Translations under genes and position numbers: made by a program
DNA from: Octopus vulgaris
Taxonomy: Eukaryota
Length of the DNA: 64,000 bases
NCBI GenBank assembly: GCA_951406725.2
Contig: OX597815.1
Coordinates: 103,974,001 to 104,038,000, forward strand
Direction: 5' to 3'
The notes under the pieces: generated by a model
What the model saw: the letters and a program-made list of their open reading frames with translations, nothing else
Databases searched by the model: none
What the model was told of the DNA's origin: nothing
Shown: positions 21,161-42,497 of the stretch, in pieces
Layout of the letters: each line of letters opens with the position of its first letter
Numbering within the stretch: the stretch's first letter is position 1

Positions 21161-21352
21161 TATATAGAAGGAGTTTACAGGACTAGAACTGTTTCATTCA
21201 AGAGAAATATTCAGGAAGCTTCCTGAAGATTTCTCTTGAATGAAACAGTTCTAGTCCTGTAGAAGCTCCTTCTATATAATAAATTAATTTTACTCTGCTA
21301 TGTATTGAGTACCTTATTTACTGTGGTTAACCCTGAATCAACCCGGGACCTA
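21161..21352 (+). mobile_element. Palindromic PLE-type terminal insertion in (TA)n carrying a hammerhead motif
   Basis: Inverted arms 21161-21278 centred on aagctt (21216-21221), unique tail to 21352, (TA)n on both sides. Confidence 0.7.
21218..21266 (+). ncRNA. Type-I hammerhead ribozyme motif (GUA cleavage triplet)
   Basis: gcttc-CTGAAGA-t.ttc.tctt.gaa.t-GAAA-cag.ttctagtc.ctg-TA-gaagc. Stem I gcttc/gaagc, stem II ttc/gaa, stem III cag/ctg, core intact. The base of stem II is a non-canonical U-U. Confidence 0.75.
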
Positions 21353-21398
21353 CATATATATATATATATATATATATATATATATATATATATATATG

Positions 21399-21460
21399 AT
21401 TGATTGATTGATTGATTCTAGTTTCAGCTCATGAGCTGTGGCCATGCTGGGGCACCGCCA
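21399..21460 (-). mobile_element. SINE/LINE 3' tail fragment ending in (TCAA)n
   Basis: gtttcagctcatgagctgtggccatgctggggcaccgcc resembles the tail of the SINE at 60779 (gtttcagtcatttgattgcggccatgctggagcaccgcc). Confidence 0.5.
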
Positions 21461-24400
21461 TTTGGTGTTGCTACATGGTTTTACTTCACGAAAGCTTCTT
21501 AGCAACTGCCATTTGGTGCATGAGAGAGTTCGATGCAGCTGCCCTCATCTGCACCTCCCGCATATATATATATGTATACATATAAATATATAGGTATGTA
21601 TGAATGTGTGTGTCTGTTTGCGTGTATGTGTGTGTGTGTATGTTAACCTATTCACTATAGCCATCACTCGCAAGGGATTAAGATAGCCTGTGCCACGCTG
21701 TTGCTCTCTTTTGTAGGTGTGTATATATCACGAGGAGACATAGTCATTCCCTTGACCTTCCAGCCTAGTGAAACATCGAGTATGAGAGTACTTTTATGTA
21801 AAGCAACAGACAAAACAATTGACCATTTAACTGAAGGATCACTCAATTCCTTTCTGTAGAGTACTATATATATTTTTAGAAGGCAAATGTTGATAGTCAC
21901 TTCGAAATTCCGCCTTACTTTCCGTGATCAGGGAGCGGGTCAAGGGAAAGTAATCCGAAACTTCGAGCCACTGACAACTTGCGATGGAAAGATACGTATA
22001 TATAGCATTATGTAATTTACAGCATCTACAAAAATGTTATATATACTTAAATAGAGCATAATAACTGAAGCAGATGGTTATGTTTATGCTGCATCTTTTC
22101 GTAAATGACATAAAGAATACAATGCCGCATATGCATGTTTTGCCATCATTTATCTTTTTATTACAGGCCCGAACTACATAGTTCTTATAACAAAATCTTG
22201 TGCTGAGGAATTATTTCAGCCACGTAAGTGCAATACCCTGAACACAAAAGCACGCGCCATCACAGATGTATGTGTGTGTGTGCGCGTGTTTCTACGTGTG
22301 TGTGCTTGTGTATCTGTATGCTCATGTGTGCGCGTGTGTGTGAGTGCGTGTGTATATGTGTGTGCGTGTGTATGTTTGTATGTGTGTGTCTTCGCTTCAA
22401 AATTCTGTTTTGTCATAGCTACAGGAATAGCCTGTCGTGACAACTCAGTATACTTGTAATTGCATGAATCCTTAAGCTCCGATTTTAGGGTAATGAGATC
22501 TCACGGTTATCTTCTTATCAAAACTTTCATATAAACAGCAAGGCAAGCAGAGTGCAAATTCATTTTACAATAGTATCAATGAGTTTTGGCATTTTCGGAT
22601 TATTGACTTTTGTCTGGTCCTCTCAACTGAAACAGCTATAAGCTAATGGATATAATTAGGTAATTCTTGCTCGGATTTCATTATGTAACACACACGTACG
22701 TACAAGCAAACGTCATACATTACATACATAGAGACAGACAGACAGATGTACGTATATGTGAAGGCACATACATTTTTAAATATGCTTATATACGATAAAT
22801 GATATACATGTTATATGTAGGATATTCATGATATATTTGCACACAGACATATTCATGATATATATTTGCACACACATACATATAAAACATACATGTATAT
22901 ATATGTATGTATGTATGTGTATATATACATATATATATATATATATATATATATATATATATATATATATATATATATATATATATATAATAAATGTACG
23001 TATTTATGTATGTATGTATACATAAGTGTGAATGTGAGTGTACTTGTGTCTGTGTGTAATATTTGTCGTTTAGGTCAGGCCACACCTGATCGAACAGACC
23101 AATTACCAAAATCATTCCATTAGTGATCTTCTCGTGTTTATCCCCCGTGCAAGAAATTCAGAAACACATTATCGAAAGTGGCCATTATCTAAGCGGTAGG
23201 ATGTACAGAAAGAGATTTTGTACCTATGTTTAATAAGATGATTGACTACGTAGCTGCACTCTCATTGGCTCCGACCGTACGAAGTTTTGGAAATTTCGAG
23301 TATAACTACCACTTTATAAAAACACAATAGTAATATGATCTGAACTTCTATTAAAGTGACATGTGAACTTCGGCCGTTATTCCCAGACTTCTTTCGAAGA
23401 TGAATGTTTCTTATTTATTATTTTGCTATTGCATATCACTGATATTTATACTTACCCATTTTGTTGAGAAATTTGTCGCATGTCCATAATTTATTATCTA
23501 GTTTTGTAGGAACAGTGTGTATGTTGTAAAATTCACAATTATAACCCAGACAAATACAACACTCTCTCGCCGATTTACTATAAATCTAAAATAATCATTA
23601 ATTTCTACTCAATACTGACTACAACAGAAAAAATGGATAACGGAAATGTTAGCAAATAACATGACTATCTCATACAGAATTTTAAAGCAAAATTTGAATA
23701 TTAATGATGGAATATATATTCCAAGCTAAACAACACAAAAATTTACACACATGTAACGTACACTAGCCACCTACAAATACGTCAGATTGTCGAAAGAAAA
23801 GTAGAACAAATGGTCAAATATTTAACGACAAATGTACTAGTCTCCATTCTCTAACTAAATTAGTAGTAACACATGACAAAAACACCCATTTCGTCCAAAA
23901 GACTGCGAAGATCGAGAAGAGGTGTTTGGGCTTGGACTATATATATATATATATATATATATATAAAGAATGTATACAAAAGCACACAGGCGCGCGCACA
24001 CACACACACAAACACACACAAAATTTCATCAAGAGAAACTTGAAGATCTATAAACTCGGTTAGACCTACGAACTTAGAAATGTGTGTGTGTGTGTGTGTG
24101 TGTGTGTGTGTGTGTGTATGTATGTGTGTGTGTGTGTGTGTGTACGTGTCTGTGAGTGTCTGTGTCTGTGTAATAACATTCGTCATATGTTATAGGTCAT
24201 CTGATTATGTACAGGAATTCCTGTCTAAGATGCAAAATATATGGAAGACTAATGTTGCAAATTCATACATGTTGCACATCTACAGTCGACCACAGTAGGT
24301 CTCGGAAAAAAAACTGGGACTATAAAGCCTGACACTTTTGTTCTTGTATGTGAGAGGGGTGAGAGGGGAGAGAAGGGAGATAGGGAAGAGAGAGAGAGAG

Positions 24401-25279
24401 AGAGAGAGAGAGAGAGAGAGAGAAAGAAAGACACAGGTATGTAGGATAAATATATACTCGGGTTTTTCTTGAGGTTTTCAACCCAAACTATATACTTGTA
24501 TATACTTGTATGTTGGTATGTACACGTTTGAAATCGCGTTATATGTACATGTTTTTTTTCGTAATGCATATATAAACGTATATTTCCAACAATATAAACA
24601 CGAAGATAATCACCAGCTACAAATTTTCAAGTAGCTATTAAGTATAATTATTCTTAGATTCCGAGCACAACGCAATTGAATGTATATATTATTAACGTGG
24701 ACTATCTACCGTCATCGATAGAGCAATACAATTTTGAATCAATTGTTTATGAAACTATTTAAGTTTATAAATTGTTGTGTACGCGTTTTTACGTGAATAT
24801 ATACATGCCTATACGTACGTACGAGTGTGTGTGTGTGTGTGTGTGTGTGTGTGTGCGCGCGCGCGCTTGTGTGTGTGTGTGTGTGTGTGTGCATACATAC
24901 ATACATACATTTATTTTCTGTTACAAAAAATACAACACACGCTTGGAAACACATACAAATACACACACACATATATATATATATATATATATATATATAT
25001 ATACTCTCAACAATTGAGGGTAAAATTAATTAATTATTAATCAATTTCACCAAGTATTCAGTATGTAAAGGGACCATTTTAGGCGAATTCAAAATATTAC
25101 ATTATATATAAGGGCTTAGTAAAATAAATTACTTTGCCACATACTGAACTCATTAGAAATAGCAGCTAAAGAAATTTCTTCAGCTATTTCTAATACTTAA
25201 AGAAGATATCTCTCAGATAGTGTTTGCCTAAACCAACTCACAAAAGTATGGGGAAAAAAACATTAAAAAATCAAGTGCA

Positions 25280-25349
25280 AAGGTTATTTGAGAACGCACG
25301 TTTCTAGATTAGTCAATTCGACATTTCTTTCGTCAGCTCAGAATTCCTT
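25280..25349 (-). ncRNA. Minimal type-I hammerhead ribozyme motif (antisense copy)
   Basis: Reverse complement of 26211-26280, with loop III GTGC instead of GTAC. Confidence 0.72.
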
Positions 25350-41043: not shown

Positions 41044-41340
41044 GTGTGTGCGTGCAAACCAATGCCTGTCTCTTCGAAGTCGAATCATATATGTATGTGT
41101 GCGTATGAGTGTGTATGTACGTATGCATGTATATATATATATATATATATATATATATATATATATATGCATGCCTTTATATATTCATATGTGAGTGTGT
41201 GCGTGCAAACTAATGCCTGTCTCTTCGAAGTCAAATCATATATGTATGTGTGCGTATGAGTGTGTATGTACGTATGTATGTATATATATATATATATATG
41301 TATATATATATATATATATGGCTTTATATATTCATATGTG
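41044..41340. repeat. ~151-bp tandem duplication spanning microsatellite and unique sequence
   Basis: gtgtgtgcgtgcaaac.aatgcctgtctcttcgaagtc.aatcatatatgtatg occurs at 41044 and 41195. Confidence 0.85.
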
Positions 41341-41489
41341 TATACACGTACACATACATATACACATAAACATACATGTACATATACATATATATGTATG
41401 TATGTATGTATGTATGTATGTATGTACGTATATGTATATAAAACTTCGATAGCACCACCTGATGATATATACATACATAACTTAATAGC

Positions 41490-42105
41490 ACCACCTGTTA
41501 GGATTTGCTAAGTCCTTTTTAAGTCAAGTTTTGGGGTATCATGGTCCTTTAGAGTAGTTCTTGCTGAGTGAGTTGTATCCAGGTATAGATAGCTTAGCTG
41601 GTATTCCTCGAAAAATTCGTCCAGATTCCCTTTAAATGTGACGGTACTTTTTTCCTCTTTGATCTGTTTGAAGACAATGTTAAATAGGGCAGGGCCAGTT
41701 AAAAAAAAAGAAATTGTGTTGCAGTGTATTTATGTGTTGTCATCCTGAATTGAGTAGGGACATATGGCTCGCGGTCCTAGTTTTGGATGAATTTTGAAGC
41801 TAATGTTCAGGTCGTTTGGGCAATGCTGGTAGTATATTCTCCACATCGTGCAAATGGTGTACTGCTCACTGCGGCGCTGGAGTGAAAAGCATTTCAATGC
41901 TTTCAGACGGTCCCAATAATTGAGTTCAGTCATGCCCTTAATATTTTTAGTGAATGATCTCTGGGGTGATTCAATTGTCGACATGTTTTTTTTTTGTATG
42001 GGCAGCAGTATTCGAGGTGTGGCGTAGAAAGAAGAAAAGAGGATTGATGGTACTTCGTTCTCTCAACCGGAAGGTTCTTAAGACCCAGATGCTCATCGAC
42101 CTTAC
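41490..42105 (-). mobile_element. CR1/L2-group LINE 3' fragment
   Basis: PHLEYC...[43 protein letters not shown], then GPALFN...FKGNLDEF: classic C-terminal ORF2 motifs. Confidence 0.8.
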
Positions 42106-42246
42106 TTTTATGTGTATGTATATATGTGTGTGTGCTTGTGTGTGTGCATATATATATATATATATATATATATATATATGTATGGGTATACACATATGTA
42201 TATATATATATATATGTGTGTATGTATATATATATATATATATATA

Positions 42247-42497
42247 TATCTATACAATATGTTACATTACTCGGTAGTCAAGATAAAACTCTGAGTTTCA
42301 GATGCCGAAGTGGAAATCCACAACACCATCTCTTCGGTTAACCGAAGAGATGGTGTTGTGGATTTCCACTTCGGCATCTGAAACTCAGAGTTTTATCTTG
42401 ACTACCGAGTAATGTAACATATTGTATAGATAAATTTCCTCTATTTACATAATATTGAGGTCTTTTTCTTTCTTTTGTTATCTTACCGTTTTATCAA
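42247..42497 (+). mobile_element. Perfect 186-bp palindrome plus tail in (TA)n; PLE-type terminus with a variant hammerhead
   Basis: 42247-42432 is a perfect inverted repeat centred at ggtt|aacc (42339/42340), followed by a unique tail to ~42497, with (TA)n on both sides. Confidence 0.72.
42339..42397 (+). ncRNA. Hammerhead-like motif, variant core (CCGAAGA)
   Basis: taa-CCGAAGA-gatg...gtgg/ccac...catc.t-GAAA-ctc.a.gag-TT-tta. U4 is replaced by C and stem I is truncated by the inversion. A mirror copy lies on the minus strand. Confidence 0.5.

What the first reader, a model, noticed from the sequence alone, without database searches (positions are those of the whole stretch)
21161..42432. 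Inversion points of three unrelated elements all map to the hammerhead CUGANGA box
Seen: the 21.2-kb palindrome centre (21218/21219) is 4 nt upstream of CTGAAGA. The 42.3-kb palindrome centre (42339/42340) is 2 nt upstream of CCGAAGA. The inversion junction of the 25-kb array (25674/25675) falls 2 nt downstream of CTGACGA. The three elements share no obvious primary sequence, all sit in (TA)n, and all have their 3' ends pointing outward. Established: PLE insertions often carry an inverted 5'-truncated copy. Inference: the ribozyme structure itself may set where reverse transcription stalls and folds back or switches template, giving a ribozyme-determined insertion architecture. This rests on only three cases.
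Basis: partly seen in the sequence, partly recalled or inferred. Interest (0 to 1): 0.72.

Follow-up and report, generated by a model that had tools for sequence, protein, structure and literature searches.

The report
Penelope inversions stop at RNA start
These back-to-back repeats are real insertions of Penelope-type jumping genes, but across six families their turning points do not share a position at the ribozyme motif; they likely mark where copying runs off the start of the element's RNA, which in some families lies only a few bases before the ribozyme.

Summary
The three inversions and their coordinates are real, but the proposed rule is not general. Arm 5' ends within 10 nt of CUGANGA in genome-wide, tail-selected copies: 21-kb family 60/76, 42-kb family 10/28, 25-kb tandem family 2/46 (chance 1.7). 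In the 7-kb family that wall is the first base of a spliced exon behind an initiator-like motif, and both arms lack the intron. In the 21-kb family an untemplated G precedes the wall in 6 of 6 readable arms. Best reading (0.68): two target ends prime on sense RNA at two fixed sites, run towards the capped 5' end and join by microhomology; self-complementary 4-6-mers give perfect palindromes. The ribozyme's likely mark is elsewhere: 9 of 80 arms of one family carry a deletion at the predicted cut site. The 42-kb element is the 5' end of a Hydra-type Penelope ORF. Inverted copies are known; earlier scan notes reached similar readings on other DNA of this genome. No RNA start data were obtainable.

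The parts
21161..21220 (-). E1 short inverted arm; 3' end at the family's near start site (+52..+66); core altered to CTGAATA (21208-21214); 2-nt loss at the predicted cut site (about 21174-21176)
21217..21352 (+). E1 tail-bearing arm, starting at -6; type I hammerhead core 21223-21229, predicted cut after 21261; 3' end at +130 into (TA)n
21217..21220 (.). AGCT, self-complementary 4-nt overlap shared by both E1 arms; family hot spot (30 of 76 arm ends exactly at -6)
25000..25674 (-). E2 left arm, 1.2 units of a 558-nt tandem hammerhead repeat; starts at +220, ends at +337; core at 25330-25336
25675..26467 (+). E2 right arm, 1.4 units; starts at +9, ends at +243; core at 26224-26230
42244..42340 (-). 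E3 short inverted arm, ends at +91; box CCGAAGA at 42331-42337
42339..42495 (+). E3 tail-bearing arm, starts at -3 with a 2-nt TA overlap; box 42342-42348; ends at +156; front end (pLTR and 5' UTR) of a Hydra-type Penelope element
6880..7058 (-).
7061..7170 (+). E4 short inverted arm, +45..+154

Best explanation
These are head-to-head insertions of Penelope-type element ends whose two arms begin at two fixed sites downstream of the hammerhead and whose inner ends likely stop at or before the 5' end of a capped sense RNA, which in some families would lie only 6-17 nt before the ribozyme core. Shown: two fixed outer ends per family; family-specific inner walls; short overlaps at junctions; intron loss in both arms (E4); no wall in the tandem family. 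Inferred: the endonuclease opens (TA)n, both DNA ends prime reverse transcription on the RNA (one at each site), both cDNAs run 5'-ward, and their 3' ends are joined through microhomology. When both reach the RNA start and it holds a self-complementary word (AGCT in E1, CTAG in E5, TA or TGGCCA in E3) the product is a perfect palindrome. The hammerhead is near the centre because it sits at the front of the transcript, not because it stops the enzyme. Tandem or circular retrozyme RNA (E2) has no fixed start, so its junctions scatter.
For: Walls differ by family relative to the core: E1 -6 (30 of 76 ends exactly there, 0 in the next 60 nt upstream), E3 -26..-1, E5 -17..-12 (17 of 38), E4 -41..-28 in spliced coordinates (12 of 44), E6 -90..-66 (23 of 30 main arms, hand-read), E2 none. 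E4: a long copy shows an initiator-like TCACTTC, a short first exon, a GT donor and a 1130-nt intron ending in AG 13 nt before the core; short copies lack the intron, often in both arms, and none of the spliced ones extends past the exon start. This matches D. virilis Penelope: intron 46 nt after the start (PMC2377424, passages), ending at helix I (PMC4209133, passages). E1: base -7 is G in 5 of 5 non-templated arms plus L039, against T, A or C in 25 templated arms; one contig of an independent run shows the same extra G; an untemplated G is read as a cap copy for L1 (PMC9341517, passages). E3 continues into an ORF about 270 nt after the core, so both outer ends lie inside the 5' UTR. One arm per site: 20 of 20 readable E2 junctions. 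PAc nicks and extends both strands, starts at two internal sites and does not need ribozyme cleavage (PMC11167929, parts 1-2 of 4). The same E1 centre recurs on at least five sequence variants, each matched in both arms, so it forms repeatedly.
Against: No RNA 5'-end data: only contigs were available. Walls were first defined from the pile-ups themselves; independent support is strong only for E4 (splicing) and E1 (extra G). In E1, 0 of 7 short non-inverted copies start at the wall against 29 of 38 inverted main arms (Fisher p 0.0003). In E1, E3 and E5 the wall also lies at or near the 5' edge of an extended helix I, and a predicted outer helix covers part of the E4 exon. E4 arms at the wall show a G in at most 1 of 4 cases. 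TATA-like words 29-31 nt upstream in E1 and E3 are weak evidence in AT-rich DNA, and E5 lacks a conserved one. E3 has a broad wall with two candidate starts (-14, -26). E6 is almost all non-inverted, so it shows the wall but not inversion at it.
Confidence: 0.68

Rival explanations
1. One reading: the folded hammerhead (the 5' edge of helix I, or a ribozyme dimer) stalls the enzyme and triggers the strand switch, at least in families with a long helix I.
For: E1 wall equals the 5' edge of its 6-bp helix I and is used only by inverted copies (0 of 7 non-inverted); predicted helix I extends to about -14 in E5 and to -12 or beyond in E3, close to their walls.
Against: No excess at the box in E2, E4, E5, E6; the E6 wall is 66-88 nt upstream in sequence predicted mostly unpaired; the extra base at E1 -7 is a single G, not the GG expected from switching onto the helix partner; by the time the enzyme reaches the 5' strand it has already copied its partner (inference); ribozyme mutants do not change PAc products; hammerhead-less Naiads make the same inversions (PMC8557442).
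Confidence: 0.14
2. Self-priming on an antisense transcript creates the palindromes (Arkhipova et al. 2013).
For: Published explanation for palindromes at inverted junctions (PMC3846280, passages); intron-retaining arms exist in E4 (L156, L208).
Against: Both arms lack the sense-strand intron in many E4 copies (L164, L169, L172, L173, L210, L237); most junctions are asymmetric; one arm ends at each of two sites.
Confidence: 0.07
3. One cDNA is made, then host repair or second-strand synthesis folds it back or switches template at short palindromic words; no second RNA priming.
For: Arms match within a locus; centres sit on AGCT, CTAG, TA.
Against: Asymmetric junctions where the short arm reaches further 5' than the tail arm (L096, L178, L122, L236, L343) cannot be copied from the tail arm; cut-site deletions are often in one arm only.
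Confidence: 0.08
4. Library or assembly fold-back artefact, or one palindromic master amplified as a unit.
For: E3 arms are 100% identical; this locus was not bridged in independent data.
Against: Arms end at different fixed sites; E1 arms differ; same centre on several variants; some palindromes carry later insertions (L014, L120); joints in independent runs.
Confidence: 0.03

Closest known systems
Hydra-clade Penelope-like elements (Craig et al. 2021, PMC8557442; passages and section 11)
   Same: E3 family ORF has RWK, DKT, CxCX5C, CxxC and CxH motifs, a C-terminal endonuclease, a hammerhead and (TA)n targets; inverted 5'-truncated copy and one-sided tail.
   Different: Tails here are about 60-95 nt, not 30-40; in the passages read the paper does not map inversion junctions; no tree was built here.
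PAc / Poseidon of the green anole (Frangieh et al. 2024, PMC11167929; parts 1-2 of 4)
   Same: Two internal start sites that define the tail; both DNA strands nicked and extended; AT-rich target; uncleaved RNA used.
   Different: The parts read do not address how inverted copies form or where their inner ends lie; the PAc ORF starts inside the ribozyme, here about 270 nt after it (E3).
Adineta vaga Pen2/Pen3 inverted pLTRs (Arkhipova et al. 2013, PMC3846280; passages)
   Same: Head-to-head arms, palindromes at the junction, microhomology, TATA and initiator in the pLTR.
   Different: Antisense self-priming was proposed; spliced arms here point to sense RNA.
D. virilis Penelope promoter and intron (PMC2377424, PMC4209133; passages)
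   Same: Start site, short first exon, intron ending at helix I, as in E4.
   Different: Intron 75 nt there, 1130 nt in E4; Penelope promoter described as TATA-less.
Animal non-LTR retrozymes (PMC7229834 passages; bioRxiv 10.64898/2026.07.22.740005 part 1 of 5)
   Same: E2: tandem units each with a type I hammerhead, dispersed, at least 555 insertion ends.
   Different: 558-nt unit is longer than the sizes I recall for the class; 'inverted' occurs 0 times in PMC7229834; RNA circles untested here.
L1 twin priming (recalled, Ostertag and Kazazian 2001; not read)
   Same: Both target ends prime on RNA; inversion with microhomology; 3' ends outward.
   Different: L1's second primer lands at variable internal sites; here both sites are fixed and both arms cover the same sequence.

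Membership tests
Hydra-clade PLE (E3 family) | RWK present and DKG changed to DKT in the N-terminal region | tested here: met
   KRMRWKAF in L407, L409; SDKTKN in L427; criteria
Hydra-clade PLE (E3 family) | CxCX5C linker, CxxC and CxH around conserved E and N, no CCHH | tested here: met
   CSCRNKELC, CGLCD, CPH in L002 frame 1, read by eye
Hydra-clade PLE (E3 family) | C-terminal GIY-YIG endonuclease by profile | tested here: inconclusive
   Pfam PF01541 E 0.004, 17.8 bits, below cut-off 22.6; no Pfam RT hit for the 452-aa piece
Hydra-clade PLE (E3 family) | Placement in the Hydra clade by RT tree | not tested
   no reference set fetched
Hydra-clade PLE (E1 family) | Linked endonuclease ORF | tested here: inconclusive
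   a 90-aa end with CxxC..E..N..CxH lies 3.7 kb upstream in three long copies; no Pfam hit; no intact element found
EN+ PLE insertion anatomy | Partial tandems, inverted 5'-truncated copy, one-sided tail, (TA)n target | tested here: met
   criteria
Type I hammerhead ribozyme | Core boxes with helices I-III in type I order | tested here: met
   descriptor scan, (E3 has CCGAAGA; E2 and E3 have minimal helix III and a GUU cut triplet)
Type I hammerhead ribozyme | Match to an Rfam hammerhead model | tested here: not met
   no hammerhead family at E up to 10 in 3 of 3 stretches
Type I hammerhead ribozyme | Self-cleavage | not testable with these tools
   indirect only: E1 deletions at the predicted cut site
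Non-LTR retrozyme (E2) | Two or more tandem units, each with a type I hammerhead | tested here: met
   multi-unit arrays L066/L077, L068, L072; core tail segment kept in 40 of 40 arms found
Non-LTR retrozyme (E2) | Circular or monomeric RNA expressed | not testable with these tools
   no RNA holder listed
Non-LTR retrozyme (E2) | No protein coding | not tested
   no ORF scan was run on the unit

The most novel reading that the evidence does not exclude
The hammerhead cuts the capped front of the Penelope RNA while it is being copied; helices I and III hold the 45-nt 5' piece in place, the reverse transcriptase jumps the cut (leaving 1-5 nt scars, mostly in the second arm), runs off the cap, and the two cDNAs pair through the palindromic word at the start of helix I. 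The ribozyme would then co-determine insertion architecture in families with an active monomeric hammerhead, and the genome would hold a record of in vivo cleavage.
Probability: 0.3. Interest if true: 0.65.

Novelty: new member of a known kind. Interest (0 to 1): 0.4.

Why it matters
How Penelope-like elements make their inverted ends is stated as open in PMC8557442, and the one explanation I found in print is antisense self-priming (PMC3846280). The family-wide junction maps here favour sense, spliced, probably capped RNA copied from two fixed sites and give a direct test in the existing in vitro system.

Tried and rejected
Rfam: no hammerhead hit (one search showed only 150 of 262 rows, all repeat-driven). 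Public runs: no RNA holder listed, contigs only, so no start sites; this is no evidence on expression. Search in long E1 copies for an upstream splice donor matching the extra G: 1 candidate in 1 of 6 copies, so a spliced mini-exon in E1 is neither shown nor excluded. Cut-site deletions outside E1: none evident in E2, E3, E5, E6; at most 2 of 43 in E4 (regex-based). A pile-up of E4 ends at +44..+57 (8 ends) may be AT-rich alignment blur; not pursued. First queries that began at the window's own centre bias towards it and were not used as sampling frames. Random 600 kb (60 stretches): 49 inverted pairs, 19 flanked by (TA)n; 1 of 19 had a core within 10 nt of the centre, 3 within 30 nt; several of the 19 are SINE pairs or simple repeats, so this is only a rough check. 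Literature searches found no paper mapping PLE inversion junctions to the RNA start or to the hammerhead; subscription journals are mostly not covered and no supplements were opened (those of PMC8557442 and PMC11167929 may bear on this).
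Full report
Setting. The window is G000:C2:103974001-104038000 of a 2.8-Gb, 227-contig genome; an earlier scan note calls it an octopus, not checked here. Positions below are relative to the first C of the CUGANGA box (0). E1 = 21.2 kb, E2 = 25 kb, E3 = 42.3 kb, E4 = a fourth inversion at 7 kb; E5 and E6 are control hammerhead families met in other loci.

Observation. A descriptor scan finds type I hammerhead layouts at 21223, 25336/26224 and 42337/42342; Rfam has no matching model. 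Qualifications: the E3 box is CCGAAGA; the E1 left arm has a changed core and a 2-nt loss; in E2 only one arm starts near the box (+9), the other at +220.

Sampling. Copies were chosen by 3'-tail sequence so that the inner end played no part: E1, 52 insertions (30 of 40 rows and 30 of 33, duplicates merged); E3, 27 of 27; E4, first 30 of 95; E2, first 30 of 555; E5, first 30 of 3616; E6, first 30 of 288. The E1, E3 and E4 samples include the window's own copy. Ends were called by local alignment to natural long copies, ambiguous ones read by eye, and entered by hand for the statistics. Left out of junction counts: copies running past the reference (E1 7, E3 3, E4 1, E5 5) and short non-inverted copies (E1 7, E3 10, E4 7, E5 6, E2 7). 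At least three of the seven long E1 copies have inversions kilobases upstream; adding them gives 60 of 82.

Result. Arm ends within 10 nt of the core: E1 60 of 76, E3 10 of 28, E2 2 of 46, E4 5 of 44 (p 0.06), E5 3 of 38 (p 0.54), E6 0 of 25 main arms that reach it. Each non-tandem family has its own wall: E1 -6, E3 -26..-1, E5 -17..-12, E4 -41..-28, E6 -90..-66, with 0-3 ends in the next 60 nt upstream for E1, E3, E4 and E5.

What the wall is. In E4 a long copy (L216/L268) shows TCACTTC, a short first exon, a GT donor and a 1130-nt intron ending in AG 13 nt before the core. Short copies carry the exon joined directly to the ribozyme region, often in both arms, and stop at its first bases. This is the layout published for D. 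virilis Penelope (PMC2377424; PMC4209133). E6 copies start at TCATTC and E5 copies at a CCATTC or CTATTC word; reading these as initiators rests on a recalled consensus. In E1 the base before -6 is G in 6 of 6 readable non-templated arms, and the recurrent junction CAGG|AGCT (6 arms) fits a 2-nt overlap with such a G; one contig of an independent run has the same extra G. An untemplated G is the usual sign of a copied cap in L1 (PMC9341517). In E3 the sequence continues past the tail into an ORF with Hydra-clade motifs; 7 direct-tandem junctions join a site near the ORF start to the same wall, 3 of them with an extra G. The wall therefore is not specific to inversion in E3, E4, E5 and E6.

Outer ends. 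Each family has two fixed 3' ends in (TA)n: E1 about +60 and +130, E3 +92 and +155, E4 +154 and +223, E5 +70 and +139, E2 +243 and +337. Inverted insertions use one of each (20 of 20 readable E2 junctions; exception L187 in E1). This fits the two internal start sites and two-strand extension shown in vitro for PAc (PMC11167929).

Exact centres. Zero-spacer palindromes sit on self-complementary words at the wall: AGCT (10 of 38 E1 junctions), CTAG or TTCTAG-type (6 of 19 E5), TA and TGGCCA (E3). The E1 centre recurs on at least five sequence variants matched in both arms, so it arises repeatedly and is not one amplified master.

Against my reading. No RNA start was measured. E1 non-inverted short copies avoid the wall (0 of 7; p 0.0003). 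Walls in E1, E3 and E5 coincide with the 5' edge of helix I or its predicted extension. The extra G is not seen clearly in E4. These keep a narrowed ribozyme model alive at about 0.14.

Where the ribozyme does seem to act. In E1, 9 of 80 arms have a 1-5 nt deletion starting at +38/+39, the predicted cut (7 of 35 short arms, 2 of 45 tail arms, Fisher p 0.04; this count uses all stored E1 loci). Eleven other indel calls at +13 are a subfamily variant. The same deletion occurs on two sequence variants whose partner arms are intact, which suggests repeated origin. E1 is the only family here with a full helix III. The window's left arm carries this scar.

Artefact check. Asymmetric ends, arm differences, later insertions inside palindromes and head-to-head joints in contigs of three public runs argue against fold-back chimeras; this locus itself was not bridged.

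Verdict. New members of known kinds (Hydra-type PLE ends; a retrozyme-type array). The inverted architecture is published. The RNA-start and two-site model was not found in the searches listed, but unreviewed notes of this scan state similar readings for other loci; they are not counted as support.

Noticed in passing
window 6880-7170: Fourth inversion of the same build; family has a hammerhead, a spliced first exon and a 1130-nt intron; this copy's junction lies downstream of the ribozyme.
   Followed up: yes
window 21174-21176 and E1 loci L039, L042, L043, L044, L048, L050, L053, L195: Small deletions starting at the predicted hammerhead cut site in 9 of 80 arms, mostly the short arm.
   Followed up: partly
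L009, L016, L405, L406, L418, L422, L428: E3 direct tandems join a fixed site just inside the ORF start (about +290..+300) to the 5' wall of a new pLTR copy; suggests a third preferred priming or jump site.
   Followed up: partly
window 21276-21296 and 25966-25986: E1 and E2 share a 21-nt AT-rich motif beside a 3' start site; may point to the helper element that moves E2.
   Followed up: no
L271, L274, L277 (E1 long copies): About 3.7 kb of microsatellite-rich 3' region between the endonuclease end and the hammerhead; several copies have kilobase inverted arms.
   Followed up: partly
L340-L369 (E5): Very abundant family (3616 exact tail matches) with CTAG-centred palindromes; both CTGATGA and CCGA(T/C)GA boxes.
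   Followed up: partly
L370-L399 (E6): Hammerhead family (288 exact matches) that is almost never inverted (2 candidate inversions in 30) though it has a sharp 5' wall; why is unexplained.
   Followed up: no
window 20785-21112: tRNA-like SINE copy directly left of E1, with a diverged relative at 14941-15069; other SINE copies at 54599-54976, 60636-61210, 62572-62734.
   Followed up: no
window 41500-42100: Stretch that looks by eye like a decayed retroelement ORF on the minus strand; no match to the E3-family protein piece.
   Followed up: partly
L280:2097-3500: Another tandem hammerhead repeat of about 354 nt with a head-to-head junction away from its core.
   Followed up: no
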